64,000 nt of DNA from a virus, in IMG/VR virus record IMGVR_UViG_3300048588_000891, positions 3,563 through 67,562 of that record; one strand, given 5' to 3'. Positions 19,103 through 51,981 of the stretch are shown in pieces. Positions within the stretch are counted from its first letter, which is position 1. Each line of letters starts with the position of its first letter. The notes below the pieces were generated by a model. That model ran no database searches, was not told the DNA's origin, and saw only the letters and a program-made list of their open reading frames with translations. The position numbers were made by a program, and so were the translations under genes.

Positions 19103-19139
19103 AATGAAAACCCGCTGGCAGAAACAGCGGGTTTTCATT
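19103..19139. terminator. Bidirectional intrinsic terminator
   Basis: AATGAAAACCCGCTG-N7-CAGCGGGTTTTCATT between convergent genes. Confidence 0.8.
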
Positions 19140-19585
19140 CACTCTTCGATTTCCAAGGTGGCCTCCAGCCTCTCAAGTTCTGAAGCCGGCACGATCTCGA
19201 CCTTTGGTTTGAGCTGGGGAGCCAGATCGCTTTCAAAAAGCGGAAGCGTACCAGGGAGAGCCATCGAACGTACAACTGAACGACTGAATTCAGTTTGCAA
19301 ATTTTCAGCATCGGAAGGTGCATAGAACCGGATGCTGGTCCTGGAACTCAAAGAAGACGCTCTCATGCTTCGCGGTTGGATGGTTTCCCTTTGTGGGACC
19401 ATATAGACCGGATCAGCACCAAACTCGGTATAGCGAATCACGCCGCCATTCATTGCGCCTTCTCTCAGCGACATTAGCTCGGCACTTTCGAGGCGCACGG
19501 CAGGAGGAGTTCCGCCACCAACGGAGCCAGCATTTCCAATTGTAGTCCATCCGATTATTAAAGCGGCTACTATTTTAAGCTTCAT
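19139..19585 (-). CDS. Secreted protein 1 with Gly-rich mature N-terminus (GSVGGGTPPAV)
   Basis: Signal peptide MKLKIVAALIIGWTTIGNA; AGAGGA RBS; 15 bp downstream of HTH regulator 1. Confidence 0.8.
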   Translation of the reverse strand: MKLKIVAALIIGWTTIGNAGSVGGGTPPAVRLESAELMSLREGAMNGGVIRYTEFGADPVYMVPQRETIQPRSMRASSLSSRTSIRFYAPSDAENLQTEFSRSVVRSMALPGTLPLFESDLAPQLKPKVEIVPASELERLEATLEIEE

Positions 19586-19600
19586 GAGTTGATCCTCTGG

Positions 19601-20317
19601 TTAAACGATCGCGCAGGCTAAGAGGAATGCAAAATCAGAAAATTCCTCGCATTTTGATGGCTTTTCAGTTTCTTCCTTGAAGAGGTCAGAGAGGTCCTTG
19701 TTTGCATTCATCATAATCATTCTGCCTCTTTGTGCTTTCTCTGCAGTTGTCCTGAAGACCCTGCAAGCCATCATGTCCGATTCTTTTGTTGTATAGGCTG
19801 AATCGAGAACGAATCGACCTAAATTTCTGACGCTTCCCTCGTCCAGTAGCTCGTTGTGCGTATTTGAAGCATGGATCATCCCGTTGTCAATCGAGACGTA
19901 ACCACTGTTGATAAATTTCTCCATGACGACGTTGTAATTGGCGCCAAGGAAGGTGGATGCGAAATCGACCGACATCGTTTCTGCAGTCGAAATTTTTATC
20001 ACAAACCACGCATCATCACTGCTGTCGATCCGAAGTCCGCTTGGCTTGGTTGCCGCCAAGTTGCGAGTTCGAGCATCGGTAAATAGCTCATCAAGCAGGG
20101 AATAGACGAATTCTTTGGGACAAATTGCCGTGAGCAGGCGATAACATGTGGTAAATGAAGGGTTCGCTTCACCTCGTAAAATCTTTCTTAGGTTTGAAGT
20201 GGCGAGGCCGGTCTCAGCATAGATTTTCTGCAGCGTGTTGCCATTCTTGGGATTGTGCCACTTGTGAAGCTCCTGCCGAACATGTTCCCTGAGTTCTGTT
20301 ATCCCAATTTCATTCAT
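19601..20317 (-). CDS. XRE-like HTH regulator 1 with C-terminal domain (resembles TIGR02147/DUF4423-type proteins); occupies the repressor position
   Basis: TLQKIYAETGLATSNLRKILRGEANPSFTT HTH; same architecture as 39273..40004; divergent from the replication gene. Confidence 0.75.
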   Translation of the reverse strand: MNEIGITELREHVRQELHKWHNPKNGNTLQKIYAETGLATSNLRKILRGEANPSFTTCYRLLTAICPKEFVYSLLDELFTDARTRNLAATKPSGLRIDSSDDAWFVIKISTAETMSVDFASTFLGANYNVVMEKFINSGYVSIDNGMIHASNTHNELLDEGSVRNLGRFVLDSAYTTKESDMMACRVFRTTAEKAQRGRMIMMNANKDLSDLFKEETEKPSKCEEFSDFAFLLACAIV

Positions 20318-28819: not shown

Positions 28820-28835
28820 TGGCCCACCTCTTGCT
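28820..28835 (+). promoter_or_regulatory. Sigma54 (-24/-12) promoter
   Basis: TGGCCCACCTCTTGCT matches GG-N10-GC with TGGC and TTGC, 45 bp upstream of the barrel 2 ATG. Confidence 0.75.
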
Positions 28836-28880
28836 TGTTTGCAAATCGCGACAGCTGTCGCACACATTAAGGAGACTGAG

Positions 28881-29468
28881 ATGGTTCGTAACATGATTGC
28901 TCTCGCATCTGTCCTGGCGGCTTCCGGCGCGTTCGCGCAGGATCTTGCGATCAAGCCCAGAGTGATCCAAAGCCAGATGACACTCGACGCAAAGAGCACG
29001 GTTGACGACGAAGGCATCGAGGAAGATGCTGACGGCGGCAAGCGATGGGTGCCTGGCAAAGGCGTTGGCGTGGATCTGGATTATTCCCTGAATGAGCGCG
29101 CTCGCGTTGGCCTGGGCCTGTCCTACACCGAGTTCGACCGCTACAACATGAAGCACTTCGATACTGCTCTAGGCGGCTACGCGGCATTCGATGTTTTGAA
29201 AACGGACGCGTTCAGCCTCTATGGGAAAGCCGGTCTCAGTCTTCACCAGTTCGGCAGCGAGACCTTCAAACCTGCTTCGCTGGTCAATGCCGACCTGGGC
29301 GCTGGTGCAGCTTTTGCAGTTGCCGAAAACGTGAGCCTGGGAGCTGAATATCAGTACAGCACCACCCTGGTTAAGGATGACATGAAGGCGAAGGACTGGG
29401 ACTTCCGCGTCAAGGACCTGAGCCAGACTCGAAACGATTATTCCTTGTTTGTTGCATATAAGTTCTAA
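28881..29468 (+). CDS. Outer-membrane beta-barrel protein 2 (Ail/Lom/OmpA-TM-like)
   Basis: AAGGAG RBS; signal peptide ending AFA; LYGKAGLS, LGAGAAF, LGAEYQY; terminal VAYKF. Confidence 0.88.
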   Translation: MVRNMIALASVLAASGAFAQDLAIKPRVIQSQMTLDAKSTVDDEGIEEDADGGKRWVPGKGVGVDLDYSLNERARVGLGLSYTEFDRYNMKHFDTALGGYAAFDVLKTDAFSLYGKAGLSLHQFGSETFKPASLVNADLGAGAAFAVAENVSLGAEYQYSTTLVKDDMKAKDWDFRVKDLSQTRNDYSLFVAYKF

Positions 29469-38850: not shown

Positions 38851-39276
38851 TTATTTGCTCTCAGCGTCTTTGACCACGACAGTCACTGATGGATCGTCGA
38901 CCAGCGTCATGGTCACGATCTTGGATTCGGGATCAATACCTGTCGCGCGGACATTCATATCGCGATAGACGAAATCCTTGCCTTCGGCAGCAGCGACAGA
39001 GACCAAATCAAAGTCAGTGGGCTGCACTTCAAGCAAGATACCCGCTGGGGCCTCGCTGCTCAACTCCATCAACCTGGTCGTCCGTATATTTTGGGGCAGA
39101 GCGGCGATATCGAGTTTCAGATTATCGCCAAGGAGTTCTTCCATCCTGGCGGTCGATAGCATTGTTTCTGACAAGGCTACTTCCTGAAGCTGCTTGCCCA
39201 GGCCACCGCCGCCAGCTGACCCACCAGAAAACGCTGTGCCCGATATTAAAAGCAACGCAAGCAAGTATATTTTCAT
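38851..39276 (-). CDS. Secreted protein 2 with Gly-rich mature N-terminus (GGSAGGGGLGKQLQ)
   Basis: Signal peptide MKIYLLALLLISGTAFS; ATGA overlap with regulator 2. Confidence 0.85.
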   Translation of the reverse strand: MKIYLLALLLISGTAFSGGSAGGGGLGKQLQEVALSETMLSTARMEELLGDNLKLDIAALPQNIRTTRLMELSSEAPAGILLEVQPTDFDLVSVAAAEGKDFVYRDMNVRATGIDPESKIVTMTLVDDPSVTVVVKDAESK

Positions 39277-40004
39277 TCTCCACCTCTCAGGAACGATCCC
39301 ACGATCGAGAGCAGCAGTGCGTTCTGATCTCCAGGATGCTCTTTTGCTAGTTTAAGACTGTCATCAAGGTATCGTCTCGTCAGGTCTCTGTGCTTTTCTT
39401 TTCCGATTTCGCTTAAAGCCATTGTAATATGATAGAGGAAACCGCCTTGGGCAATTTCGTCAGTAGTCCATGAGTTCAGGTGCATTAAAGCTTTCGCTTT
39501 AGAGTCCGAAATCTTGGGATAGTATAGATACTCTTCAGATTGCTTAAGTTTGCCATTCACCAATCTAACAAGGCCAGCATCAAGAAGAAGCTCGACACGT
39601 CGAGGTACAATGTAATCTCCGAAAGTCGCTTGAAGCTTTTCAGGTGTAACTCCAGATGGAAGAGCAGCCATCGCAAGTATGAAATGATCTGGTGATTCCC
39701 ATTCAAATTCATCGCTGGTTATCACCGTTTTGGTTTCGTCTTTGCTCCAGTTGTTCTTTACCACAAGCCAGAATTTTTCCTCAGTGTGCTTATCCACCAA
39801 AGACATGACGTCTTTGAATGGCATAAACACAAGAAGTAGTGACGTAATTTTTTCCAGTGAAGTTTTCTGCACTTCACCTTGAATTATAGATCTAGCTGTT
39901 GAAAAAGGCATTCCAGCAGACCTTGCAAGAGCAGCGGTTGACAGATGCGGATTCTCTGTCAAATACCGCTTGATAAGCTCGCGTGCTTCCTCTAGGAGAG
40001 TCAT
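39273..40004 (-). CDS. XRE-like HTH regulator 2 (paralog of regulator 1)
   Basis: LSTAALARSAGMPFSTARSIIQGEVQKTS HTH; central wHTH-like LLDAGLVRLVNGKL; likely start MTLLEE at 40004. Confidence 0.78.
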   Translation of the reverse strand: MTLLEEARELIKRYLTENPHLSTAALARSAGMPFSTARSIIQGEVQKTSLEKITSLLLVFMPFKDVMSLVDKHTEEKFWLVVKNNWSKDETKTVITSDEFEWESPDHFILAMAALPSGVTPEKLQATFGDYIVPRRVELLLDAGLVRLVNGKLKQSEEYLYYPKISDSKAKALMHLNSWTTDEIAQGGFLYHITMALSEIGKEKHRDLTRRYLDDSLKLAKEHPGDQNALLLSIVGSFLRGGE

Positions 40005-40383
40005 GTTGAGTAATCCCTGCCGATTATTTGTTAACAATCGTTGTTACTCTATTACCAATCACTGTTTTTCTCAATGAAAGACACACTCAGATCTTGCGGC
40101 TATTCACAGTCAGTTTATAACTGCCAACACAAAGCTTGAAAGTCTTGTGGGATAAGGAAAGGAGGACTTATCGCATTCGATTAAAGAGAGGCAAGGACGA
40201 CACAAACCCATGATCAGCTCTTGTTTGGCGACTCCAGCTGATAAGTGTTTTTCAGCAGCGTCCTTGATGTGAAAGTTATCTCTATTAACCTTCAACGTCA
40301 AGTGCGTGTCACCCGATATACGTCTTTCCCTCTCACCCTAGTTCAATAGAAAAACCGCCATGAGCGAATGAATCCATGTCGCC

Positions 40384-41508
40384 GTGGGTGCCGAACCCTA
40401 TTGTCAAAAGGAGATGAGCAGGATGGGACGAGCGAGCAGGAAAGACTGCGCAACGAGCCTAGAGATAGTGAGACTCGTCGACGATTCCATATGGAGTCGC
40501 TTTCAGACAGAATACCCGCATGGTTTGGTGATTGGCCGGGACGAACTCACTCTCCTTAAGGGATTGGCCGCCAATGGGCAGGCCGCCACAGTCATCACTG
40601 GGGAAACCGGCACTGGAAAGGAGGAGATAGCTAAACTTCTCCACCGCTTTCGATGCGATCGAGAGGGAAGCATCCCATTCGTCGTCGTGAACTGCGCGAC
40701 CATTGCTGAAAGCCTTTGCGAATCTCTTCTTTTTGGCCATAGACGCGGAGCGTTCACAGGCGCGGACTCTTCGACAAACGGATACATTCAAGATGCCAAT
40801 GGCGGCATCTTGTTCCTGGATGAGATCCACACCCTCTCCATATCTATCCAGCAGAAGCTTCTGCGGGTTATGAACGACGGAACATTCAACCGACTTGGGG
40901 AAACCTCCCAGCTCCAGAGCCGATTTCAGCTGGTTGCTGCTTCTACAAGGGACCTGGATGATGAAGTCGATGCGGGGCGATTCCTTCTCGATCTCAGAAG
41001 CAGACTGACTGGCATTGATATACACCTATTGCCTCTTCGGGATCGCAAGGCAGACCTACCTGCGCTGGTCGCGCGCCGCTTGTCGGATAATGGTGTTTCG
41101 ATCAGCGGAGATCTGCTTGCGCGGCTGGTTGAATACCTTGCGCAATTTCATTGGCGTGGAAACATACGCCAGCTTTTCAAAGCTATCGACACCTGGATCC
41201 TTGCTTCGACGATGAAAGGGATTCCCCTGTGTATCTCCAGATTCCCTGTTTTCAAAGGAATGCTGGAACCTACCGCAAAAAAACAAATCGGAAATGGCGA
41301 GGCGTTTGAGCCAAACATAGAGCTTTTTGCTTCGATCTTGGCAGGACGGAACCTTGTCGAAACTCTTGAAGCTGTAGAAAGTTTGATGATCAGCGAAGCC
41401 ATTAAAAACCATAGAACCATCGGCGACGCGGCGAGAGCGCTTGGTGTACCTCGGTCTACGATTGATACCAAGAGACGGAAGTATGGGCTGGCTGGTTCAG
41501 TTGTGTGA
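40384..41508 (+). CDS. Sigma54-dependent enhancer-binding activator lacking a receiver domain
   Basis: GETGTGKE, ESLLFGHRRGAFTGA, LFLDEI, WRGNIRQL, C-terminal Fis HTH AARALGVPRSTI. Confidence 0.95.
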   Translation: MGAEPYCQKEMSRMGRASRKDCATSLEIVRLVDDSIWSRFQTEYPHGLVIGRDELTLLKGLAANGQAATVITGETGTGKEEIAKLLHRFRCDREGSIPFVVVNCATIAESLCESLLFGHRRGAFTGADSSTNGYIQDANGGILFLDEIHTLSISIQQKLLRVMNDGTFNRLGETSQLQSRFQLVAASTRDLDDEVDAGRFLLDLRSRLTGIDIHLLPLRDRKADLPALVARRLSDNGVSISGDLLARLVEYLAQFHWRGNIRQLFKAIDTWILASTMKGIPLCISRFPVFKGMLEPTAKKQIGNGEAFEPNIELFASILAGRNLVETLEAVESLMISEAIKNHRTIGDAARALGVPRSTIDTKRRKYGLAGSVV

Positions 41509-41536
41509 ACTTTTGAAATCCATAAAAGGAGTGCTC

Positions 41537-42211
41537 ATGGAAAGAAAACTGTCAGTTGTATTTGTGGGTCTGATTCTCTCTTCTGTTTCGCTTGCGGGGC
41601 AGGGAAGTGGCAGCGGTTTGGGCTTGCAAGGTACTGGTCTGGGTGGTGGTGGAACACTAACAATGGGTGGCTCCATTGGTGGTGATTTCCCTAGCGTCAG
41701 CGGAACTGTAGTTGGTGGCAGCGGTGCCCGTAGTATGACGGATGGCAGTCTAGGAGGAAGCGGCGGTACACCGGCTGTAATGGATGGATCCATTGGTGGT
41801 GGCGGCGGCACACCAGCCCTGACAGGCAGCGGCATCGGCGGCGGTGGCCTTGGTTTGCAGGGCAGAACCACTGGCGGCGGTTCACCCCCTGCTCTAACGG
41901 GTGGCAACATCCACGGTCGTAGTGCTCGATTGCAAGGTTGGGGCACGAGTGGCGGCACCCCACCTGCAGTAGCGGACGGTATTAGCGGCGGCGATACACC
42001 AGAGGTCGAAGAATTCAGCGGGCAAACGGGTGGCGGCGGTGGTGCTGGACTTTGCAGCAGCGATGCCGAGCAGCTAGCAAATTCCACTCTGACCCCGAAT
42101 CTCGCGATCGTGGTCGGTGGTCTTCCTGCTCAAGTTTCGCCCACGTATATTGCGGCAATTTCCATGCAATATCGCTCACACGCTGATGTCTGTGAAGCGA
42201 CTGAAGACTAA
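41537..42211 (+). CDS. Secreted protein made of about 12 tandem variant Gly-rich peptides
   Basis: AAGGAG RBS; signal peptide ending SLA; units such as GSIGGGGGTPALT, GSGIGGGGLGLQ, GRTTGGGSPPALT, GWGTSGGTPPAVAD. Confidence 0.85.
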   Translation: MERKLSVVFVGLILSSVSLAGQGSGSGLGLQGTGLGGGGTLTMGGSIGGDFPSVSGTVVGGSGARSMTDGSLGGSGGTPAVMDGSIGGGGGTPALTGSGIGGGGLGLQGRTTGGGSPPALTGGNIHGRSARLQGWGTSGGTPPAVADGISGGDTPEVEEFSGQTGGGGGAGLCSSDAEQLANSTLTPNLAIVVGGLPAQVSPTYIAAISMQYRSHADVCEATED

Positions 42212-42417
42212 TGCAAGTACAGGATTTTATCTATCTAGGGTTACAGCGATCAGCAGATTTATCGGCAGCTGCTGCACGAGCACGACTCAAATGCAAGCAG
42301 CAGCGAGTAGCCGATTTAGATAAGAATTTTTTGCAGAACTCAAATTCGGGGTTGGATGCCTTTTCAAGCAATCAACAACGAGGTTTTATTAAACCCAGTC
42401 ATTTAAAGGACTTTCTC

Positions 42418-43104
42418 ATGAAGATTGCGAACAGACAGATTCTGGCTTTCATCGTTTCGGCCATTGCTGTAACCACTGCTTACGGCAAGGATCAGGCAAG
42501 GGATGGAGCGCGGCTAATCAACGATGAGTACCAAATTTTTGTCAACAATCTACCTGTCGCTGACAACGATTATGATGCAATGCTTGCAAAAGAACTCTGC
42601 GGCTTTCAGATATTCACGGAATGGGGTGGACAATATATGTCCATAATCAAAAGCACGCCGAACCTTGAAATATCTGACATCCAGCCCGTGACCGACCTTG
42701 TTGTCCGCCTGGAAAAAATTCAGGATGGCTTTAATGAAGCCAAATCAATTTTTCCTGAGCACTACAGACAATTCAGAACGGGGCTTCTTACTATGAGGTC
42801 TCAGGGAGCCCTCGCGGCTGAAGCCTCCGCACAAGGTCTCACTCTCGCTGATCCCAAGAAAGATCAACTTAAAGCAGCTTTCAGTCAATGCCACGAAGAC
42901 AACTTCGTAAACAATGCAGTCTTTCGAGTGCAAGCGAGCTTCTGGAGTGAAACTATCAGTTACTCGTCTGCAAGGCCGGGAACGATCGGGGTAACATGGG
43001 GCGTGAGCGGCAGCGGGACCCCAAGCTATGTGGTCACACCTGGAGAGATCGTCGTTTCATCGTCGAAGAGAAGTAGTTTCCTCAGAAAAGCTTTGATGTG
43101 GTGA
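42418..43104 (+). CDS. Secreted hypothetical protein
   Basis: AAGGA RBS; signal peptide ending AYG. Confidence 0.7.
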   Translation: MKIANRQILAFIVSAIAVTTAYGKDQARDGARLINDEYQIFVNNLPVADNDYDAMLAKELCGFQIFTEWGGQYMSIIKSTPNLEISDIQPVTDLVVRLEKIQDGFNEAKSIFPEHYRQFRTGLLTMRSQGALAAEASAQGLTLADPKKDQLKAAFSQCHEDNFVNNAVFRVQASFWSETISYSSARPGTIGVTWGVSGSGTPSYVVTPGEIVVSSSKRSSFLRKALMW

Positions 43105-43146
43105 TCGAAGTCCCGTAAGCGATTAACCAACAAGGATCATGGATTT

Positions 43147-44370
43147 ATGCGAAAGACAGAAATTTTACTTATCCTTTCCCTGGCAGTTCCGGCTTGCCAT
43201 TCCAAAGACCAAAATCGAGTCGTCGTCAATGATGGTGAAGAGATTCTTGGACTGCGTCCACAGCGAGTCGATGTAGATAGCCTAGTTGCGCAGCTTGATA
43301 CAGTTAACGGAGGCCGGGATGGGATCGACGAACGACCGGATTTTGCAAAGCCGATTCCGTTCCTTGAAGCGCTTCATCCAGCTCTGCCAAAACTCCTAGA
43401 ATCTCCAAGCTACATAGGGAAGTACAAGTTCATAGCTTTCAAGAAAATCCCTGATCCTGTTAGAAATGACATCATCGCTGTAACAAGTGAACGGTCCAAT
43501 GGCTATGCTCTCCTGATGAAAGCTCAGTGGCAACGGCTTTTCGATAGTCAGGATCGAGGCATTACCATTGGAATGCTCGAAACGAAGCCAGATGCACGCA
43601 TATCAGGAGTCTACTCCGATAAGGGGAGACTGTTAGGTGTCGATGTGCTGGCAGCCGAGGGCACGATTACGCATGAGCTTAGACATGCCGATCAGTTTGA
43701 TGCGTATAGGCCGTACCGGAAAGGGAAGCTTCCCGGTGTTGACGATGAGTGTTACTCGAGACTGCATAGTATGTTCGCGGAAGTTGATGCGACCAATGTT
43801 GAACTGCCGACGTGGCTTGGAACCATGAATCGGGTGACTTTTGACGCAGAGTGGTATAGCGATAGAGACAAGGTTCTGTCCATGGAGCGGGATCCGGTCA
43901 ATTATCCATTCGCGCAAGATTTCTCCACAGTTCTTAGTTATCCAGCGTCAGTGTCGTATGCAGTGACGCTAGTCAACTCATGCCCACAGCCAATCAAGGA
44001 TTTCGCAAAGAAAGTTTACGTAAGAATGCAGCAAGCCCAGGAGGAATTGCGGCCAGTCTCTGCACTTGTGGGTGGTAATAGGGGCAGCGTCTTTATTGGA
44101 TGGAAAAGTTTTTACGGTCGCTGTTACTTCGATGGAACGGCTGCTGACGACAAGACCACCGACCAAAGCTGCATGCGCGACAAGCTTACGAATGAGCGGA
44201 TCGCGCGGCAGAACTACGAAATGTTGAAAGAATTCGATCCGATATTGAAGCAGGAAATAGACACCCGAACGGCGGATCTGACTGCGATCTATAAGGAAGC
44301 TCCCATGTTCGAGGATTTCTGCAGGGAGATGCCAGGATTCCGGTTTTACGTGAACTGTCAAAACCAGTAG
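43147..44370 (+). CDS. Lipoprotein with HExxH zinc-metalloprotease motif
   Basis: Lipobox VPAC; THELRHADQ with a downstream EVDA glutamate. Confidence 0.7.
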   Translation: MRKTEILLILSLAVPACHSKDQNRVVVNDGEEILGLRPQRVDVDSLVAQLDTVNGGRDGIDERPDFAKPIPFLEALHPALPKLLESPSYIGKYKFIAFKKIPDPVRNDIIAVTSERSNGYALLMKAQWQRLFDSQDRGITIGMLETKPDARISGVYSDKGRLLGVDVLAAEGTITHELRHADQFDAYRPYRKGKLPGVDDECYSRLHSMFAEVDATNVELPTWLGTMNRVTFDAEWYSDRDKVLSMERDPVNYPFAQDFSTVLSYPASVSYAVTLVNSCPQPIKDFAKKVYVRMQQAQEELRPVSALVGGNRGSVFIGWKSFYGRCYFDGTAADDKTTDQSCMRDKLTNERIARQNYEMLKEFDPILKQEIDTRTADLTAIYKEAPMFEDFCREMPGFRFYVNCQNQ

Positions 44371-44403
44371 TCAATCCAAAATCTTTCAAAGGACGTTTTA
44401 AAA

Positions 44404-45933
44404 ATGATGAAAAAAATATCTGTGATGCTTGCTCTGGCAAGCACGCCATGGAACCTTGTTGCCGAAACACTGTATCCAAAATCGCTGCCGCCGCGTTATT
44501 ACGGTCTCGATCAAGTTCGCTCTCCTTCCTGTCAGTCCGAGGCAGAAGCCCATGCGCTGGAGCAGGCATTTGCCAATAAAGGCGCGAAGGTCATGATCTC
44601 ATCGTGGCACCGGAACTATAAGAATTGGTATGGCAAGGACCTATCAATCCCGAGAATTAGACCCCTCACTCCCGAGGACGACGCAATCGTTAAGGCCACC
44701 CCCTCCCTCATTCCTGACTTCATGTATCCAGCTCCGGATTTCAGAACCGGAAACGCTGGTGGTTGGCGACCAAATATGTCTCTCATATCCAGCATCGACG
44801 TGAGCTTCGCAAGCGATACCGCCACTGGTTTTGAAAAGCAAATAAAATCATTCGAGACGCAGGATTCGGGCCAACCTTATAGCCCTAAGTTTGATGGCAG
44901 AAACACAGCCGATCTCATCAATGCAATAAGAGCTGGTAAGGCCCTAACGCTCTCTATCCACTCGCAAGTCCTCTCACTTTTTGACCATGACACTGGACTT
45001 CTGACAAAAAGATATGACCACGATTCCTTCCTGGCTTCGCTCTCACACAGAAACGAATCGTCTGAAGACACTCTCATCGACCGATATATCGAGGACGCCC
45101 GCAGGGTCAGTCAGGGCTGGCAGAATGAGCAGGATCTCCCCCTCTATGCCTCCGAAAAAAACCATGCACTTGCTGTGGTCGGTTACGACTCTGAATTCTA
45201 TCGGAGCGAATATCCGGCAAACCCTGGAGCGCTGATTGTCCGTAACTCATGGAACGAGCAGAGTTTCATTGCCTCAAGTGAGTCCCAATATACCGCCAGC
45301 CAGAAGGCAGGAGATCTGGAGCGATTCAGATATCCCCTTTATAGAGCCATGACAGGTGGTGTCGGCGCCGTGCGTAACATGCCAGGATACTATGCACTCC
45401 CTATGCAGTACGTGCAGGATATGATCAATTTCCAATGGCCGAACTCAGCAAAGCGGGGCGTAGGGGAATACTATATCCTCGAAGTAGCCCACCCTGATGT
45501 CTTTATTCAGGCATACAATGCAGCTTCCGCGCAGTACACCGTTATGCGGATCCCTTTCACCTGCGATAAAACTGCGGGAAGAAACAAAGTGAGTAACTAT
45601 GCTTTCTTTCTTGAGGAAGAACCGCAAACAGCATCTTCGATACTCGCTGCGGAGGCGCGGGGCCTCGGCGCAACCTTCAGGCTTGCCTACCTTCCAGTAC
45701 GGAATGGCGATAAGAGCATCGTAAGTCGTTTTCTAAGCGGTGGGTTCGATGACTACTTCTGCAAGTATGACCCAGACCAAACCAGCTTCGACCAGACATG
45801 GCCGGGCCGCTATACGAACGACGTTCCCGAGGTGTGGTCCGCCGTAGAAGGCATTTCTTCTCTTCCAAACAGCCTTCTTTCCTGGAGCAGATACCTGCGA
45901 ACAATGAACGAGAAAGGAGCCGCGAAATGGTAA
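44404..45933 (+). CDS. Secreted papain-like cysteine peptidase
   Basis: Signal peptide; DQVRSPSCQ, NHALAVVGYD, LIVRNSW. Confidence 0.82.
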   Translation: MMKKISVMLALASTPWNLVAETLYPKSLPPRYYGLDQVRSPSCQSEAEAHALEQAFANKGAKVMISSWHRNYKNWYGKDLSIPRIRPLTPEDDAIVKATPSLIPDFMYPAPDFRTGNAGGWRPNMSLISSIDVSFASDTATGFEKQIKSFETQDSGQPYSPKFDGRNTADLINAIRAGKALTLSIHSQVLSLFDHDTGLLTKRYDHDSFLASLSHRNESSEDTLIDRYIEDARRVSQGWQNEQDLPLYASEKNHALAVVGYDSEFYRSEYPANPGALIVRNSWNEQSFIASSESQYTASQKAGDLERFRYPLYRAMTGGVGAVRNMPGYYALPMQYVQDMINFQWPNSAKRGVGEYYILEVAHPDVFIQAYNAASAQYTVMRIPFTCDKTAGRNKVSNYAFFLEEEPQTASSILAAEARGLGATFRLAYLPVRNGDKSIVSRFLSGGFDDYFCKYDPDQTSFDQTWPGRYTNDVPEVWSAVEGISSLPNSLLSWSRYLRTMNEKGAAKW

Positions 45934-47255
45934 ATCACCCATGGCATTCACGAATCGTATTGGTCTGCATGTCGGCCGCAGTTTTTACCGTAGGGTGTGG
46001 AAAGGATGAGCCCCAGGCTCAGTCGAAGCTGGCTGCAACCATTGAAATGAATGAAAAGAGTGAAGTGCGAGGCGGCCTTGGGATCAATGTCGATACTGGA
46101 GATACGTTTGAGGAATGTATCGACATGGCGACTGCCGCATACAAGGCTGAAGACGGTCAACAGGATGCTATTGACGGCGATTCCTCGTCAGCATCACTTA
46201 AGGTCAGTGTGCAGTCACTCAACTCGTACCAGGACATCGACAAATTTACTGACGTAAATGTGTCGGCAAACATCAAGTCTGCAACTTATGGCGGTGGATT
46301 TAATTATAGCCAGACGGAAAAATATGCGATGACATCCGATCTTGCATCGGTTGGTATTCATGCCGCCGCTGACTATGGCCGCTGGTATCTTGTCAACCCC
46401 ACGCTCAAGCCAGAGTATCAGGAGCTGTACAAAAAGTCGCCTGAGAACTTTTTCAAGCGATGCGGTACGGAATTTGTGAGCGGCTATCGGCGCGGTCAGG
46501 GGATTTATGTTCTTCTGTCTACGACCAAAAAGAGCCTTGAAACCTATGAGAAGATCTCAGCCAGTGTCCAGGCGTCCGTTAATACCGGCGCGACGTCAGC
46601 GAATGCCTCTGCCTCCTTTCTCAACGTGGCCTCAGAGCTGCTCAAGATCGGAAGCTTGAATGTTGAAGTGAGGGCCTACGGGGCCGGTTCGATCAGCACG
46701 CTTCAGCAGCTGATCACAGCAAAGGCGGATGTTGAAAGTCTTGCTCAGCAAATCTCCAATTTAGTCGGGAACATGAAGCCGCAGCAGTCGTCCAGGTACG
46801 TGATGCTCACCAGTCCATACCCCGGAGTCGATTATTCCGGGTCAAAAGCCTCACCAATCATGCGGGAATATCGACGGTTCATCCTAAAGGGGCTTTTCTC
46901 TGACTATCGAAGACTTGAGCAGGACCTGGGTCGCGCAACAGGGATTGTTCGAGACGCTGACGTGCTCAAAAAGCAGCTGGGCGGCCTGTGTACCTTTCCT
47001 ATCAAAGAGAACAAGACCTGCGATCAGTTCCTTAATGAGCTTGACGATCTTAAGACGAAGATTGAAAAGGCTATCAAAAAGATCGAGGATCTATCCAAGG
47101 ATTGCGCTGCAGCAACCGAGATAGACAAATGCAAGTCTGCCAGCTCAGGCGACGTGCGAATTTCTGATCTCACTATCCGCACATGGGAGCAGCAATACCG
47201 ACGCCAGCTTGAAATAGAGTATATCAAGTATCTCAGAGATCCAAACAACTGGTAA
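45927..47255 (+). CDS. Lipoprotein, MACPF/CDC-like pore-forming candidate
   Basis: Lipobox TVGC; FFKRCGTEFVSGYRRG resembles the MACPF F..YGTH signature; alternating beta segments SASVQASVNTG. Confidence 0.6.
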   Translation: MVNHPWHSRIVLVCMSAAVFTVGCGKDEPQAQSKLAATIEMNEKSEVRGGLGINVDTGDTFEECIDMATAAYKAEDGQQDAIDGDSSSASLKVSVQSLNSYQDIDKFTDVNVSANIKSATYGGGFNYSQTEKYAMTSDLASVGIHAAADYGRWYLVNPTLKPEYQELYKKSPENFFKRCGTEFVSGYRRGQGIYVLLSTTKKSLETYEKISASVQASVNTGATSANASASFLNVASELLKIGSLNVEVRAYGAGSISTLQQLITAKADVESLAQQISNLVGNMKPQQSSRYVMLTSPYPGVDYSGSKASPIMREYRRFILKGLFSDYRRLEQDLGRATGIVRDADVLKKQLGGLCTFPIKENKTCDQFLNELDDLKTKIEKAIKKIEDLSKDCAAATEIDKCKSASSGDVRISDLTIRTWEQQYRRQLEIEYIKYLRDPNNW

Positions 47256-47322
47256 ACAACCCACTCTCTAATTGTCCTGCGGCCTAGGAATATGGCTGCA
47301 GGACTTTTTCGATCCAAATGTA

Positions 47323-47991
47323 ATGAGGGGAAATGCCTTGCGACTTTATCCGTTGCTATTGCCAATAGTGGGCTTGGTTGCAGCCTGCGGACGGTATGAG
47401 AGCGAAAGCCAGACATCCGTCGTAATTGGCTCTAATGATCTGTATGAAGCCTCGAGTGATTTGAGGCTTACCGATGCTCTCGGTCGAGTTCAGAAGGGGT
47501 GTACAGCATCCCACCTTGGGAACGGACTTGTCCTTACTGCCGGGCATTGCATCACAGCGAATGAATGTGCAGAAGCCTTTGACGTTACCTGGGGAAGGAC
47601 AGGCCAGAATCCGTCTGGAACACTTTCTTCTAAATGCGCCGGCATCGTTTACATTGAGGAATCAAACGAGAGAGACTTCGCGCTCTATAGAGTCGAACCT
47701 TATCCTGATATCAGCCTCGCGCTGTCAGATGTTGATATCGAATCAATTGGAGAAGTTTCGGCCTTTTCGTATCCAGGAAGCAGGAATCTTCTTAATTCGG
47801 GACCCTGCCAACTGCTGGGGCCAGACTTTGGTGATCGGTGGTTCCATAACTGTGACACTGAGAAGGGCAGCAGTGGAGCGCCTATACTAGATTCGGCTGG
47901 GCAAATAGTGGCAATTCATAATCGTGGATCAAATATTCTGTCCAAAAACTCGGGCACTAAGGCAGCCGCGATCCGAGCACAACTAGATTGA
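47323..47991 (+). CDS. Trypsin-like serine protease lipoprotein
   Basis: Lipobox VAAC; LTAGHC, RDFALY, DTEKGSSGAP. Confidence 0.92.
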   Translation: MRGNALRLYPLLLPIVGLVAACGRYESESQTSVVIGSNDLYEASSDLRLTDALGRVQKGCTASHLGNGLVLTAGHCITANECAEAFDVTWGRTGQNPSGTLSSKCAGIVYIEESNERDFALYRVEPYPDISLALSDVDIESIGEVSAFSYPGSRNLLNSGPCQLLGPDFGDRWFHNCDTEKGSSGAPILDSAGQIVAIHNRGSNILSKNSGTKAAAIRAQLD

Positions 47992-48028
47992 ATTCTTGAA
48001 CCATTCCAAATTTACTTTCGGAGCAAAT

Positions 48029-48637
48029 ATGAAAAATCGCTTTCTGAAACAGCTTGCGGCTATCTCGCTTGTTATGTTCATTCCTGCCTGCGGCCAGGCA
48101 CCATCAACCGACTCTTCCTTGAAGTGGGAACTATACGACGTCTCGGCAAAGGGGTATCCCTACTCGCTGATCAACAAGGTCGATAACCGGGAAATAAAGG
48201 TCTACATCGAAGGTGAGGAGAGCCTTCTGCGCACCCATATCACCGAATCGATTCAAATGTGGACCGACCCCCTTCCGGTATCGGTCAAGGTGAGCTTTGT
48301 GGAGAGTCGGTTCGAGGCTGACTTGGCCGTCCTGATCATCCCGAAAATTACAGGAAAGCGCGAATGGACGACAATTGGCCTATATGATATCCCCGAGATC
48401 ACGCTGTACCAGGGGCACAAGCGCACCGTACTGCTGCATGAGATGGGGCATGCCTTTGGACTCAAGGACACCTATGTCGTTTACAAGGACCCCGTGACCG
48501 GGGCAGAAACTGCGGTGTGTGATCTCGAAGGTCCCCAACCCCAAAGCATCATGTGCCTGGGTGGAAATGGTCAATATCAGCTATACCCCGATGACAAGGC
48601 TGGTATCCAGCAGCTCTACGCGAATCGAAAGAGGTGA
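48029..48637 (+). CDS. Matrixin/metzincin-like metalloprotease lipoprotein
   Basis: Lipobox IPAC; HEMGHAFGLKD; Met-turn SIM; DDKAGIQQLY. Confidence 0.9.
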   Translation: MKNRFLKQLAAISLVMFIPACGQAPSTDSSLKWELYDVSAKGYPYSLINKVDNREIKVYIEGEESLLRTHITESIQMWTDPLPVSVKVSFVESRFEADLAVLIIPKITGKREWTTIGLYDIPEITLYQGHKRTVLLHEMGHAFGLKDTYVVYKDPVTGAETAVCDLEGPQPQSIMCLGGNGQYQLYPDDKAGIQQLYANRKR

Positions 48638-49137
48638 AATTCATGAGAACCATTGCTCTGTGCTGCTTTCCGCTGGGATTCCTACTGAACGCCTGCGTCA
48701 CCTCGCCACAATCAGGTCAATCTGAACCTGATGAATTCAAAGTCACGGTGGGAGCTCCATTCGCGGAATCAAAGTCCCTGCAGTGGGAGCAGGGAGCCCT
48801 GGTTCTTAGGACCTTTCCTGCCAGCGACGATCCAGATGGCAGGAAGACGGAAACAGCCCTGGTCCCACGCAAGGATCAATGGGCAAAGTTCTGGGCTGAC
48901 ATGGATACGCAGGATTTATGGCGATGGGAGGAGAATTACCAACGACGCGAGGGCGAGACCCACCAGACAGATGCACCAGTTTGGTTTGTAACAATCCGCC
49001 GTGGAACCCGGGCGACTCAGGCCAGAGGCCAGGAAATATTCATCGATCGGAAGCACCTTGGCGAAAGTGCATCTTATAGGTCATTTTGCGATTCAGTTGC
49101 GAATCTGATTGGCACAGATTTCTGCTTTCGTTATTGA
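48634..49137 (+). CDS. Lipoprotein, unknown function
   Basis: Lipobox LNAC. Confidence 0.7.
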   Translation: MKFMRTIALCCFPLGFLLNACVTSPQSGQSEPDEFKVTVGAPFAESKSLQWEQGALVLRTFPASDDPDGRKTETALVPRKDQWAKFWADMDTQDLWRWEENYQRREGETHQTDAPVWFVTIRRGTRATQARGQEIFIDRKHLGESASYRSFCDSVANLIGTDFCFRY

Positions 49138-49157
49138 GATCATCGAAGGGAAGACCC

Positions 49158-49649
49158 ATGCGTAAGGAAATTCTGATTCTATCGTTGATTTTTGTCGCAG
49201 GCCAGTCCTGCTCGGACAAAAGTTCCCCAACCCAGCAGGAGCTTCAAAAAGAAACAAGGTTTACTGCCTCAAGAGAATATGTTCATTTCATGTTTATGGC
49301 AGTTCCACCCAGCGGTAGATTCCCCATGTACTCACCTACGCTTTGTTTGAAAGCAGCTGGTCAGATCAAAGAATCGGATATCGAAATATTGAAATTTGAA
49401 TGCATTGACTCGGAGAATCCCAGCTTGAGTGCTGACATTACTTGGCGAGGAGACAAGTTTATGGAGCAGGGCCAGGATAGCGAGATATGCTTTTCAACCG
49501 ATTTTAATCATGTGGACCATTTTAAAGGGGTTCCAGAGAAATTTAAGATATTTATCGAATTTGTTGACAAGTCAGTCGGCGAGAAGTTTCATTTTGTAAG
49601 CGAGTCGACATATTCCAAGAGTGATTTTGACCTCAACAAGAAACCCTAG
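49158..49649 (+). CDS. Lipoprotein, unknown function
   Basis: Signal peptide with GQSC. Confidence 0.65.
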   Translation: MRKEILILSLIFVAGQSCSDKSSPTQQELQKETRFTASREYVHFMFMAVPPSGRFPMYSPTLCLKAAGQIKESDIEILKFECIDSENPSLSADITWRGDKFMEQGQDSEICFSTDFNHVDHFKGVPEKFKIFIEFVDKSVGEKFHFVSESTYSKSDFDLNKKP

Positions 49650-49777
49650 TTTATGAGTGAGGAGCGTTCAGCGGTGACGCTCTATTATACGAAGATCCGA
49701 CCACGGGGGAGCAGCTTGCTTGTACCCCGGACGGCAAACTGTACCTTGGTTTTCAATCAACACACTAAGGATCTGTT

Positions 49778-50386
49778 ATGAACTTCAAGAAATTTTGCTT
49801 CGCTACTCTATGTGTAGTTCCGCTGTCGTGTGGAAAGAAGGATGACAATTCAAAGTCTGACGAAGGTCCAAAGAATCCGGCTCCCATAGCTGCGATGCCT
49901 GTAGGCTTGAGATCTCAGCTGGAGGACCAAAGCCTCTTCGGTATTTGGACAGGAAAATGTGAAGTAACGGATGGCAAATCACATCGGATAAGCCTCGAAT
50001 TTGGGGCGGATTTCCTGATTTACACCAATGCGTGGTATCAGGATCTTTTGTGCCGGACAGAAACGTCGAGTTTCCGATTTATCAGCGAATACCGGACTGA
50101 GAATGGAAAGCTATACGCCCAGCTTGCCGAAGCACATATCAAGATTGAGAGTGAATCAATTAGAGTCGCTGCCGAGAAATCAGCGTCATGTGGCTTTGAT
50201 CAGTGGTCTGCGAGCACTTGGCATAATGTCACAGGCCAATCTTGTCCAAAGACCGAAAAAACTGGTGGAGTATGGACCAGCTGGACCAAGCCTGGGAAAG
50301 TGATACTTAATCAATCATACGAAATTTTGAATGACAGGCTGACATTCGTCTCTGCGGACTCCGGGATGGAATTCAGCAAAAAATGA
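49778..50386 (+). CDS. Lipoprotein, beta-rich (lipocalin-like)
   Basis: Lipobox PLSC; LFGIWTGKC. Confidence 0.7.
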   Translation: MNFKKFCFATLCVVPLSCGKKDDNSKSDEGPKNPAPIAAMPVGLRSQLEDQSLFGIWTGKCEVTDGKSHRISLEFGADFLIYTNAWYQDLLCRTETSSFRFISEYRTENGKLYAQLAEAHIKIESESIRVAAEKSASCGFDQWSASTWHNVTGQSCPKTEKTGGVWTSWTKPGKVILNQSYEILNDRLTFVSADSGMEFSKK

Positions 50387-50445
50387 AGCACTCGATTGGG
50401 GTTGAAAGCTCATGTTCCTTTCTGTAACAATTTAAGGAGTCTACT

Positions 50446-51324
50446 TTGAATCAGATGATTACGGCTTTCATGACGTTATCGTTTTTATCAGCATGTGGAA
50501 AGGGAGATGGCGATGGTGACCCGCTGCCAGGCCCTGGGAATGCTGTCCTTGGCCTGCGGTCAAGCGATTGCGGAGAACACGTCTGGGAAAAAGACTTCAG
50601 GTTCAGTGTGGCCCGACCTGTTAAATATAGCGAATATGAAGAACATATATGGGACAAGAGGATTGCCAGCATTTCCTCGATAAACGGCAATGGCAGAAGC
50701 ACCAATACATCGAATTATTCAGAGGATCCTCGCTGTAGAAGCCTCGAGCGAATGCTTTCAGCAGGTGTGGGCAAGTGGGAATCCGATATCCCTTTCGTGA
50801 TTTATGCTGGTTCAGCTACTCGTCCTCGTATTGCGATAGAAAAAGACGGGCTTTTTCTGTATTCATTCGACCTTAAAATAGAGTCCAATGAAAAGCTTCC
50901 GACCAAGCTTGAAGGCTTTGACCCGGATGTTCTGTCGGGCCTCAAAAGCCAGGAGGTCAAGGAACTTGTTGCAACTCTCGGAGTCAGCCTTGCTCCAACA
51001 GGCAGCGACTTTTCCCGAGGACCGGAGTCCAAACCGGTCCAAATAAACTGCAAAAAGCCGTTTTCCTATAGGATCTACTTTTCTGAAAGCCGCAGCGTAA
51101 ACGACACCTGCCGTAAACGTGAAGGATCGGACCAATATGAATGCGTCCAGGCCGAAATCGCACCTACGGGGGATCAGTGCGTATTCAAAGCAAATGATTT
51201 TGAACTGCTGAACGAGAAGGGGCAGACCATAAAAGTTGATCTGGGAGGCTACCTTGGGCTTACTACCAGGAAGGACGGCAGTCCTGGGTATAGTCTCTCG
51301 ATATCAAGCGTGAGTTTGAAATAG
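50446..51324 (+). CDS. Lipoprotein, unknown function
   Basis: AAGGAG RBS with TTG start; lipobox LSAC. Confidence 0.72.
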   Translation: MNQMITAFMTLSFLSACGKGDGDGDPLPGPGNAVLGLRSSDCGEHVWEKDFRFSVARPVKYSEYEEHIWDKRIASISSINGNGRSTNTSNYSEDPRCRSLERMLSAGVGKWESDIPFVIYAGSATRPRIAIEKDGLFLYSFDLKIESNEKLPTKLEGFDPDVLSGLKSQEVKELVATLGVSLAPTGSDFSRGPESKPVQINCKKPFSYRIYFSESRSVNDTCRKREGSDQYECVQAEIAPTGDQCVFKANDFELLNEKGQTIKVDLGGYLGLTTRKDGSPGYSLSISSVSLK

Positions 51325-51337
51325 GAACGATACCGAT

Positions 51338-51742
51338 ATGCGCTTGGTGACACCCCAACCCTTGCAGGGAGCCCTGGATATGGAACTACATATTAATCGA
51401 GATAGTGTGGCGGCAGGCGATGATGCAGACCCGCACAACAAAATCCTGGAGTTTATTGGTGATCCTTCGCTCAAGGAAGCAGTAAAAAGAATCGTTTCAT
51501 CAGATTATCTTCCACGAGTGCATGACCGAAAAGTCTGCTGGGTCGTATCGTCAGACAGGCCAATCGCTATTATTGCAGAGCACTGGCACGAGCCGAAATT
51601 TCTTCGTGGCTTTAATAGCAACGATAAATTAAGTCGCCTCGCGAGGAATGAGATTATGAAATGGCACTTCAGCTACGTGATCCAGAATGATCCGGATGTT
51701 GTTTACGAAATACTTAACCGCATCAGATACCCTGGCCACTGA
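51338..51742 (+). CDS. Hypothetical protein
   Basis: RDSVAAGDDADPH...YLP pattern; last cargo gene. Confidence 0.6.
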   Translation: MRLVTPQPLQGALDMELHINRDSVAAGDDADPHNKILEFIGDPSLKEAVKRIVSSDYLPRVHDRKVCWVVSSDRPIAIIAEHWHEPKFLRGFNSNDKLSRLARNEIMKWHFSYVIQNDPDVVYEILNRIRYPGH

Positions 51743-51981
51743 TTTTCGCTCGTCTTAAAACAAGCCGCCACTATCATGTCCGATTTTGGTGTTGTCGTTA
51801 TCGTTTAATCCATGTTTTAATGCCAACGCAGGATCCTGCGTGTTTACGTGCCGGGGTCTCTGGTCAGAACTCAAGCTCCAAGCGTGTTTATGGCTTTTGA
51901 CTTCCTTAACCGCTTGCTGGTCAGTTGTTTTGGAGTGGTGGTCGCTTAAATCTCTTTACAGTCATGTATTACATGGCTTTT

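What the first reader, a model, noticed from the sequence alone, without database searches (positions are those of the whole stretch)
41537..42211. Polyvalent precursor: a library of about 12 different Gly-peptide variants in one secreted protein
Seen, after the signal peptide: GQGSGSGLGLQ / GTGLGGGGTLTM / GGSIGGDFPSVS / GTVVGGSGARSMTD / GSLGGSGGTPAVMD / GSIGGGGGTPALT / GSGIGGGGLGLQ / GRTTGGGSPPALT / GGNIHGRSARLQ / GWGTSGGTPPAVAD / GISGGDTPEVEEFS / GQTGGGGGAGL, then a short domain bracketed by two Cys. Units of 11-14 aa are diversified and fall into classes by ending (GLGLQ, TP(P)A, SAR/GAR). Unit boundaries are my reading. Inference: a signal library that addresses many regulator paralogs (host or competing elements) at once, acting as amplifier, mimic or jammer. 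It is the first gene downstream of the sigma54 activator.
Basis: partly seen in the sequence, partly recalled or inferred. Interest (0 to 1): 0.85.

Follow-up and report, generated by a model that had tools for sequence, protein, structure and literature searches.

The report
Secreted array of partner-protein head motifs
A phage gene encodes an exported protein made mostly of twelve varied copies of the short glycine-rich tip that small secreted proteins paired with a family of regulators carry, which hints at mimicry or signalling, but its function is untested.

Summary
ORF 41537-42211 (+) is a real 224-aa gene with an RBS and a Sec-type signal peptide. It has about 12 Gly-rich units of 11-14 aa and a 52-aa two-Cys tail, and it starts 28 bp after a sigma54 activator on a temperate phage of an Oligoflexus-like host.

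The units are not generic Gly-rich filler. They copy, in register, the "head": the motif at the mature N-terminus of small secreted proteins encoded directly behind a large, uncurated family of Xre/DUF4423-like HTH regulators. That family was found in 36 of 131 Oligoflexia genomes, and this phage carries two such pairs. With Gly positions fixed and the other residues permuted, similarity to these heads was never reached in 400 permutations, and the same held for the two other known arrays.

Only the two head classes carried by this phage are represented; at least six other classes are absent. I found no regular cleavage sites and no peptide-binding fold in the regulators. The array is fused to two unrelated C-terminal domains, and the cargo-swap junction lies inside it.

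Best reading (0.4): an intact, disordered, multivalent mimic of partner heads. All earlier scan notes concern this same window; nothing was found on other DNA.

The parts
41526..41531 (+). Ribosome-binding site AAGGAG, 5 nt before the ATG
   Evidence: sequence read directly
41537..41596 (+). Signal peptide (res 1-20), predicted SPase I site before Gly21
   Evidence: basic n-region, hydrophobic core, small residues at -3/-1. It is conserved in P0003. No dedicated predictor was available.
41597..42052 (+). Array of 12 Gly-rich 'head' units (res 21-172; 38% Gly)
   Evidence: periodicity and motif recurrence; similarity to partner N-termini
41806..41906 (+). 101-bp island (units 6-8) that still matches the related prophage L001 at 84% DNA identity. 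It is the last homology before the 9.9-kb variable cargo region.
   Evidence: blastn of the window against L001
42053..42211 (+). C-terminal 52-aa domain with Cys173 and Cys219, plus the stop codon
   Evidence: 76% identical in P0008, with both Cys kept
40384..41508 (+). Sensor-less sigma54 activator directly upstream, probably co-transcribed
   Evidence: Sigma54_activat 2.2e-49, HTH_8. The gap is 28 bp and no terminator-like site lies in it.
39273..40037 (-). HTH regulator 2 (P0006), divergent from the activator
38851..39276 (-). Partner 2 (P0007): small secreted protein with a GGGGLGK-type head, overlapping regulator 2 by 4 bp
19601..20317 (-). HTH regulator 1 (P0004), a distant paralogue of regulator 2
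   Evidence: regulator HMM E 2.7e-49
19139..19585 (-). Partner 1 (P0005): small secreted protein with a GGGTPPA-type head

Best explanation
P0001 is an exported, fast-evolving accessory protein of a temperate Oligoflexus-type phage. After the signal peptide comes a disordered array of 12 diverged copies of the 'partner head'. The head is the 11-14-residue Gly-rich module at the mature N-terminus of the small secreted proteins encoded directly behind Xre/DUF4423-like HTH regulators, of which this phage has two pairs. The array is followed by a small exchangeable C-terminal domain.

I propose that it acts intact, outside the cytoplasm, as a multivalent mimic of those heads. It would occupy, with high avidity, whatever envelope or extracellular factor normally recognises partner heads, and so compete with or jam the partner proteins of the host and of rival elements. 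The Gly-codon array also serves as the recombination joint where cargo is swapped.

Shown: the gene is real; the units are real; the units match partner heads in register; the head motif is nearly confined to partner N-termini; the array is fused to two unrelated C-domains; the mosaic junction lies inside the array.

Inferred: export, disorder, that a head receptor exists, and that the array acts intact and competitively.
For: 1. The gene is real and has relatives. P0003, in a syntenic Oligoflexus prophage, shares the signal peptide and the units. P0008 shares units and the two-Cys domain.

2. The regulator-partner module is widespread. 36 of 131 Oligoflexia genomes match, with up to 17 matches per genome. 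Of 80 regulator ORFs in the fetched loci, 64 are followed by a small ORF with a hydrophobic N-terminus, mostly overlapping by 4 bp.

3. The head is the best-conserved block of the partners within each of the four clades aligned.

4. The units match heads.
- Against 300 residue shuffles, the L005, L006 and L001 partners were reached 0, 0 and 1 times.
- With Gly positions fixed and non-Gly residues permuted, the sum of the 10 best scores was 491 against 413.7 +/- 16.7 (0 of 400), and the sum over all 61 segments was reached 1 time in 400.
- With 66 segments the figures were 525 against 416.3 +/- 16.9 (0 of 400).
- P0003 and P0008 gave the same result on that measure (0 of 400 each).

5. The head motifs are specific. 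Back-translated GGGGLGK and GGGTPPA gave 12 hits in 39.5 Mb of five genomes, against 1 hit for the reversed controls. 10 of the 12 lie at the N-terminus of an ORF directly behind a regulator hit, 1 is on a contig too short to tell, and 1 is elsewhere.

6. The array is modular. The C-domain of P0003 occurs in P0010 and P0011 directly after a signal peptide or lipobox, without any array. DNA homology with L001 ends inside the array at 41906 and resumes at 51785.

7. The aligned units are under purifying selection: omega 0.14 for signal peptide plus unit 1, and 0.52 for three colinear units, against 0.03-0.18 in neighbouring genes.
Against: - No receptor is known, and nothing here shows binding.
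- The similarity could be plain ancestry, meaning copying of the 5' ends of partner genes, without function. Some matches run into the signal-peptide c-region, which fits DNA copying better than selection on a mature peptide.
- In more than 50 partners the head sits at the free N-terminus. In P0001, 11 of the 12 copies are internal. If a free N-terminus is needed, the intact-array model fails and cleavage is required.
- Five of the 66 partner segments (L169-L174, among them the best match L172) were found with a motif pattern, so part of their match is ascertainment. The GWGT start of the L172 match is not part of that pattern.
- Only three arrays are known.
- The omega values rest on 33 and 41 codons.
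- The AF2 model of P0001 has pLDDT 38, so a folded state cannot be told from disorder.
Confidence: 0.4

Rival explanations
1. P0001 is a polyprotein precursor that is cleaved into about 12 different head peptides. These act as signals (amplifier, mimic or jammer) on the HTH regulators of the phage, the host and rival elements.
For: The units match heads, and different units match different natural variants. In all partners seen the head is at the mature N-terminus, so internal copies may need release. The gene order, a regulator followed by a secreted product overlapping by 4 bp, resembles peptide-pheromone cassettes. Several exported proteases are encoded downstream.
Against: No common cleavage motif lies between units. 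The regulators show no TPR or other known peptide-binding fold. Partners are 70-130-aa proteins with a conserved core motif, not mere propeptides. The host is a diderm, so a peptide would have to cross two membranes. The array always carries a conserved C-domain. Only 2 of at least 8 head classes are covered. Regulator 2 differs strongly between the two phages (40% identity) while partner 2 stays at 79%.
Confidence: 0.2
2. The array is an inert flexible linker. A partner-type 5' end (signal peptide plus head) was recruited as an export leader, amplified, and is kept only as a spacer and as Gly-codon microhomology for cargo exchange.
For: The region has 38% Gly and low complexity. Unit number varies freely: 12, about 5, and at least 4. 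The cargo-swap junction lies inside the array. Some matches include signal-peptide c-region residues. The C-domain family exists without the array.
Against: The tail motifs and the register of non-Gly residues are kept in three diverged arrays. Omega is below 1 in the aligned units. No recent DNA-level repeat exists. No cargo lipoprotein in the part of the block that I translated (42211-48637) uses such a linker.
Confidence: 0.2
3. It is a structural protein: the Gly runs pack into a polyglycine-II bundle (as in gp38-type adhesins), or into an amyloid or adhesive matrix, with the variable segments as loops.
For: Gly runs alternate with short variable segments, as in the GRM/HVS layout of gp38 (PMC3157838, passages read). 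The low-confidence AF2 model shows short strands.
Against: It carries a Sec signal peptide, so it is not a virion part. Unit number is not conserved, whereas the GRMs of gp38 are strictly conserved in sequence and order. It lies in the cargo block, not the tail module. There are no Q/N-rich curli-type repeats. The model confidence is too low to count either way.
Confidence: 0.07
4. It is a bacteriocin-like effector: a Gly-rich disordered translocation region carrying short binding epitopes, fused to an exchangeable killing domain.
For: The architecture is a Gly-rich N-terminal region plus swappable C-domains. The neighbourhood holds secreted hydrolases. In L001 it sits next to a 942-aa trypsin-domain protein.
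Against: No toxin or immunity family was hit. The 52-aa tail is very small. Export is by the Sec route. The comparison with colicins is recalled knowledge and was not tested here.
Confidence: 0.08

Closest known systems
Peptide-pheromone cassettes of Firmicutes and their phages (RRNPP type: Rap-Phr, PlcR-PapR, AimR-AimP); recalled knowledge
   Same: An HTH regulator gene is followed at once, often overlapping, by a gene for a small Sec-exported product. Many diversified paralogous pairs occur per genome, and one pair sits on a phage.
   Different: The regulators here have no TPR domain. The partners are 70-130 aa when mature and have a conserved core. The conserved module is at the N-terminus, not the C-terminus. 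The host is a diderm. P0001 itself follows a sigma54 activator, not an HTH receptor.
Multi-copy peptide precursors (yeast alpha-factor, cyanobactin PatE, neuropeptide polyproteins); recalled knowledge
   Same: Tandem, slightly different copies of a short unit sit in one exported protein.
   Different: Here there are no conserved flanking recognition or cleavage sequences, Pfam found no maturation enzymes next door, and a conserved folded-looking C-domain is attached.
gp38 adhesins of T-even phages (GRM/HVS design), PMC3157838
   Same: Gly-rich motifs alternate with short variable segments, and the Gly motifs act as recombination points (passages read).
   Different: gp38 is a virion tip protein without a signal peptide, with five strictly conserved GRMs. 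Here the unit number varies between 4 and 12, the protein is exported, and it is encoded among cargo genes.
Intrinsically unstructured translocation domains of colicins and pyocins; recalled knowledge
   Same: A Gly-rich disordered N-terminal region carries short linear binding motifs and is fused to exchangeable C-terminal domains.
   Different: Colicins are not Sec substrates and come with immunity genes. Nothing of that kind was found here.
DUF4423 / TIGR02147 proteins of Bdellovibrionota and Myxococcota (for the regulators)
   Same: The Atlas model of regulator 2 aligns to DUF4423 clusters at TM 0.53-0.54 over about res 86-252. They occur in the same phyla and are of the same size.
   Different: None of the 27 regulators scanned gave a listed Pfam or NCBIfam hit to DUF4423 or TIGR02147. 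The function of that family is unknown as well: one paper holds either term, and only in a table.

Membership tests
RRNPP-type pheromone precursor | Small propeptide (about 40-60 aa) encoded next to its receptor gene | tested here: not met
   P0001 has 224 aa and follows a sigma54 activator.
RRNPP-type pheromone precursor | Cognate cytoplasmic receptor with a TPR peptide-binding domain | tested here: not met
   The AF2 model of regulator 2 (pLDDT 84.6) is Xre HTH plus winged helix plus helices. Foldseek found 0 matches at E <= 0.001, and the best rows are XRE, HigA or SinR N-terminal domains.
RRNPP-type pheromone precursor | Mature peptide released by proteolysis and re-imported | not testable with these tools
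   This needs mass spectrometry and transport assays.
Multi-core RiPP precursor | Cores flanked by conserved recognition sequences | tested here: not met
   The residues before each unit's first Gly are Q, M, S, D, D, T, Q, T, Q, D, S.
Multi-core RiPP precursor | Maturation enzymes in the same operon | tested here: not met
   The 10 proteins in and around the block gave no RiPP enzyme family in Pfam or NCBIfam. Four downstream ORFs gave no family hit at all.
gp38-type polyglycine-II adhesin | Fixed set of strictly conserved Gly-rich motifs; virion protein with a tail-fibre attachment domain | tested here: not met
   Unit number is 12, about 5 and at least 4 in the three homologues. A signal peptide is present. 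There is no Pfam hit.
gp38-type polyglycine-II adhesin | Polyglycine-II sandwich fold | tested here: inconclusive
   The single-sequence AF2 model has pLDDT 38.1.
Curli-type secretion substrate | CsgG outer-membrane channel in the host | tested here: not met
   PF03783 matched in 31 of 131 Oligoflexia genomes, but not in G001, G066, G069 or G075, which hold the closest modules. These are MAGs, so absence is not proven.
Partner family of the HTH regulators | Signal peptide followed at once by the Gly-rich head | tested here: met
Partner family of the HTH regulators | Conserved core after the head (DD[FY]RR..RLS region and following strands) | tested here: not met
   A partner HMM of 109 positions aligns only the signal peptide and head stretches of P0001 and P0003; whole-sequence E = 4 with 4 targets.
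Partner family of the HTH regulators | Gene lies directly behind a regulator of the family | tested here: not met
   It lies behind the sigma54 activator, both in the window and in L001.

The most novel reading that the evidence does not exclude
The regulator-partner pairs are a peptide or protein-head communication system of diderm bacteria and their phages. One pair sits at this phage's repressor position and one controls the sigma54 cargo switch. P0001 is then a polyvalent precursor that releases a dozen head variants matching those of rival elements, letting the phage amplify its own signal and eavesdrop on or jam competitors. That would be an arbitrium-like system outside the Firmicutes with a built-in multi-signal library.
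Probability: 0.12. Interest if true: 0.9.

Novelty: new variant of a known kind. Interest (0 to 1): 0.6.

Why it matters
There are three reasons.

1. The gene points to an undescribed two-gene module: an Xre/DUF4423-like regulator plus a small secreted protein with a conserved Gly-rich head. The module is common in Oligoflexia, sits at regulatory positions of prophages and other mobile elements, and has no curated family and no literature that I could find.

2. A phage protein that strings together a dozen variants of exactly that head is a natural experiment. It says the head is an autonomous functional module, and it offers ready-made probes (12 natural variants) for finding what recognises it.

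3. If the heads turn out to be signals, this would be peptide-type communication in diderm bacteria and their phages, with a polyvalent mimic. If not, it is still a clear case of a short linear motif being amplified, and of a Gly-codon array serving as the joint for cargo exchange.

Tried and rejected
- Tandem Repeats Finder found no DNA repeat in 41300-42400.
- Pfam and NCBIfam gave nothing for P0001, P0003, P0008, P0010, P0011 or the partners.
- The Atlas search of P0001 gave no usable hit.
- AF2 of P0001 alone gave pLDDT 38.1, which is uninformative.
- Viral-contig scans with P0001, with the activator and with P0008 gave no relative.
- The single metagenome scan, run with an alignment of three activators, picked generic AAA+ patterns. 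It returned 80 unrelated sigma54 activators at 32-45% identity. It was wasted, and loci L080-L159 were never used.
- A sigma54 -24/-12 search gave 59 matches at up to 2 mismatches against 62.2 expected. None lies before P0001, and reading the three intergenic stretches by eye found none. The best site is the 1-mismatch one at 28820.
- The promoter and terminator scans gave no more than chance.
- Complex prediction of regulator 2 with mature partner 2 gave no verdict. I do not use it either way.
- The look-up of sequencing runs listed no RNA holder; one DNA run held a 0.05 share of words. Read laying placed only two 151-nt contigs, both inside the activator gene and none on P0001.
- A partner profile against PDB sequences gave 0 hits at E <= 1.
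- All-against-all BLAST of the flanks of the fetched regulator loci found no recurrent third gene beyond local synteny.
- The curli-type export idea: CsgG was not found in the genomes holding the closest modules.
- A weak hit of P0001 in G023 (E 1.8e-3, 46 residues over the signal-peptide region, L034) was not examined.
- Literature: 'Oligoflexus' + 'prophage' gave 3 papers, none relevant by title and abstract start in the listing. 'Oligoflexia/secreted/glycine-rich' gave nothing relevant among the 10 papers listed. 'DUF4423'/'TIGR02147' gave 1 paper, with a table mention only. I therefore found no description of the module in these searches, which is not proof that none exists. Supplementary files were not consulted.
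- Co-variation between a phage's own partner 1 and its array was looked for and not found. The L001 prophage's partner 1 has a head without the TPPA tail, while P0003 keeps TPPA-type units.

Full report
**What the window is**

The record is a 67.6-kb virus contig, and the window is bases 3563-67562 of it. It carries a tape-measure protein, a baseplate hub, RecT, a gpA-type large terminase and a lambda-type portal. It also holds defence-like genes, a ParA, a methylase and HicAB.

The finding lies in a block between the methylase/HicAB genes and the terminase. The order is partner 2 and regulator 2 on the minus strand, then on the plus strand a sensor-less sigma54 activator, the Gly-rich gene, and a run of exported proteins. 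These include a trypsin-like and a matrixin-like peptidase. Earlier notes on this same window say the same.

**The observation**

Translation of 41537-42211 gives the quoted 224-aa protein. AAGGAG lies 5 nt before the ATG, and the gene starts 28 bp after the activator's stop. The signal peptide has a basic start, a hydrophobic core and small residues before Gly21.

Two Cys residues (173 and 219) bracket the tail. Gly positions autocorrelate at lags 12-14 (z 2.1-2.3) and again at 25. The recurring tails were reached in 0 of 5000 shuffles, although I chose those motifs after seeing the sequence. No DNA tandem repeat exists. The opposite-strand Pro-rich ORF is the complement of the Gly codons.

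**Relatives of the gene**

Among 5.8 billion clustered proteins, only the protein itself and P0003 were found (2 proteins at E <= 0.01 among 8000 scored). P0003 comes from an Oligoflexus MAG.

P0003 has the same signal peptide and about five units with the same tails. It then continues into an unrelated domain of about 190 aa. Its locus L001 is a syntenic prophage. Amino-acid identities to the window are:

| Gene | Identity |
|---|---|
| C1 peptidase | 82% |
| HicA | 81% |
| HicB | 80% |
| Partner 2 | 79% |
| Regulator 2 | 40% |
| Activator | 78% |
| Large terminase | 94% |

An exhaustive HMMER search with the 55-aa tail found one more relative, P0008 (76% identical, 106 aa, on a 29.7-kb JGI contig). 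It has at least four units before the same two-Cys domain. A profile of the three found P0010 and P0011. These carry the C-domain of P0003 directly after a signal peptide or a lipobox, with no array.

In 131 genomes of the class, P0001 matched only the P0003 locus, plus one weak hit that I did not examine. The array is therefore a rare N-terminal module attached to two unrelated C-domains.

**The regulator-partner module**

Regulators 1 and 2 are distant paralogues. Regulator 2 matched 36 of 131 Oligoflexia genomes, with up to 17 matches in G001, 13 in G058 and 10 in G075.

I fetched 30 + 5 + 40 places. A regulator HMM found 80 ORFs in them. Three places had been fetched twice, and one pair is near-identical. 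By a simple hydropathy rule, 64 of the 80 are followed by a small ORF with a hydrophobic N-terminus, most often overlapping by 4 bp. The other 16 had none by that rule, some of them at contig ends.

The partners are 60-150 aa. After the predicted signal peptide they begin with a short Gly-rich head, and many share an internal DD[FY]RR..RLS motif. In each of the four clades aligned, the head is the best-conserved block.

None of the 27 regulators scanned gave a listed DUF4423 or TIGR02147 hit; the only recurrent hits were weak HTH_3/HTH_26 matches. The AF2 model (pLDDT 84.6) is an Xre HTH, a winged helix and a helical end. Foldseek gave no whole-fold PDB match, with 0 hits at E <= 0.001. The Atlas places the family in 'hypothetical' Bdellovibrionota clusters of up to 926 members. 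Its own model aligns to DUF4423 clusters at TM 0.53-0.54. I found no functional literature.

**Do the units match the heads?**

- Residue shuffles. I used local alignment of residues 13-46 or 15-46 of each partner against the array. Against 300 residue shuffles, the L005, L006 and L001 partners were reached 0, 0 and 1 times. The eight GGGGLG-type partners all scored above the reversed array. The other head classes scored at or below the null.
- Stricter null. I fixed every Gly and permuted only the other residues. The sum of the ten best scores was 491 against 413.7 +/- 16.7 (0 of 400). The sum over all 61 segments was reached once in 400. The maximum was reached 10 times in 400.
- Second head class. 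Homologues of partner 1 in three genomes show a second class, GGG[TNA]PP[AS].
- Motif specificity. Back-translated GGGGLGK and GGGTPPA patterns gave 6 + 6 hits in 39.5 Mb of five genomes, against 1 + 0 for the reversed controls. Ten of the 12 lie at the start of an ORF directly behind a regulator hit. One is on a 1.8-kb contig, and one is elsewhere.
- With five new partners added. The top-ten sum was 525 against 416.3 +/- 16.9, and the maximum 63 against 48.2 +/- 3.6, both 0 of 400. These five were found by motif, so part of their score is ascertainment. The best of them still shares a Trp-containing start that is not in the pattern.
- One unit per variant. Different variants land on different units. 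The L172 partner matches res 134-144 (10 of 11), L162 matches 109-120, L005 matches 160-171, L039 matches 21-29, and L006 and L001 match 97-106/108.
- Replication. P0003 and P0008 behave alike on the summed scores (0 of 400 each). Their single best score is less clear, reached 57 and 5 times in 400.

The units are therefore copies of partner heads, of the two classes that this phage itself carries.

**What argues against a processed signal library**

- The residue before each unit's first Gly varies (Q, M, S, D, T).
- Pfam and NCBIfam found no maturation enzyme among the 10 proteins scanned in and around the block.
- The regulators lack a known peptide-binding fold.
- The partners keep a conserved core beyond the head.
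- The arrays always carry a C-domain.
- At least six head classes are not represented.
- Regulator 2 was largely replaced between the two phages while partner 2 was kept.
- Some matches extend into the last residues of the partner's signal peptide. That looks like DNA copying rather than selection on a mature peptide.

**What argues against a mere linker**

- The register of the non-Gly residues and the two tail types persist in three arrays that differ in unit number and order.
- Aligned parts show omega 0.14 (signal peptide plus unit 1, 33 codons) and 0.52 (three units, 41 codons). Neighbouring genes show 0.03-0.18.
- Within the five genomes searched, the head motif is almost confined to partner N-termini.

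**Mosaic position**

DNA homology with L001 runs through the activator to 41201. It reappears only as a 101-bp island inside the array (41806-41906, 84%), then stops until 51785 before the small terminase. The left edge of the exchangeable cargo region therefore lies inside this gene. The Gly-codon array is the joint, much as the Gly motifs of gp38 serve recombination (PMC3157838, passages read).

**Regulation**

I found no -24/-12 site before the gene and no terminator-like site in the 28-bp gap. Co-transcription with the activator is the simplest reading. Dependence on sigma54 is not shown.

**Verdict**

The gene is real and its repeat is real. Its link to the regulator-associated secreted proteins is statistically supported.

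I rank the readings as follows:

| Reading | Confidence |
|---|---|
| Intact multivalent mimic of partner heads that also serves as a cargo joint | 0.4 |
| Processed signal library | 0.2 |
| Plain linker | 0.2 |
| Bacteriocin-like effector | 0.08 |
| Structural Gly protein | 0.07 |

The larger unknown is the regulator-partner module itself. All earlier scan notes that I saw concern this same window; none concerns other DNA.

Noticed in passing
window 38851-40037 and 19139-20317; loci L004-L079, L160-L174: A two-gene module is widespread in Oligoflexia (36 of 131 genomes, up to 17 matches per genome). It consists of an Xre/DUF4423-like HTH regulator followed, mostly with a 4-bp overlap, by a 60-150-aa secreted protein whose mature N-terminus is a clade-specific Gly-rich head. 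It has no Pfam or NCBIfam family and I found no literature on it.
   Followed up: partly
window 39213-39822 versus L001: DNA homology with the related prophage breaks inside regulator 2 (40% aa identity), while partner 2 (79%) and the activator (78%) stay conserved. The regulator was exchanged without its partner.
   Followed up: partly
window 41906-51785 versus L001 10253-15933: This is a hypervariable cargo region, 9.9 kb here and 5.7 kb in the related prophage. Only one shared gene was seen (49778-50386, 38% identical). In L001 the cargo includes a 942-aa protein with an N-terminal trypsin domain.
   Followed up: partly
L037 (G069:C300), bases 7278-10848: The same trio of regulator, partner and divergent sigma54 activator (61% identical) sits on another mobile element that carries relaxase-like and excisionase-like genes. 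There the activator is followed by small Cys-containing secreted proteins, not by a Gly array.
   Followed up: partly
loci L017, L018, L019, L022, L027, L009: One partner clade would begin, after the predicted signal-peptide cut, with Gly-(Gln/Asn)-His. That resembles an amino-terminal Cu/Ni-binding (ATCUN) motif. This is recalled knowledge and was not tested.
   Followed up: no
L036 (G001:C65), bases 2032-9379: Two regulator-partner pairs lie next to tail-like genes, including a 653-aa tape-measure-like ORF. L035 (G066:C140) has three recombinase-like ORFs in a row near its pair. The GGGGLGK-type modules therefore seem to ride on mobile elements.
   Followed up: no
window 28820-28834: This is the best sigma54-type -24/-12 match in the window (1 mismatch), upstream of ORF 28839-29468. 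The total count of matches equals chance (59 against 62 expected).
   Followed up: partly
window 41497-42087 (-): A 196-aa Pro-rich ORF on the opposite strand of the Gly array is a mirror artefact of GGN codons.
   Followed up: yes
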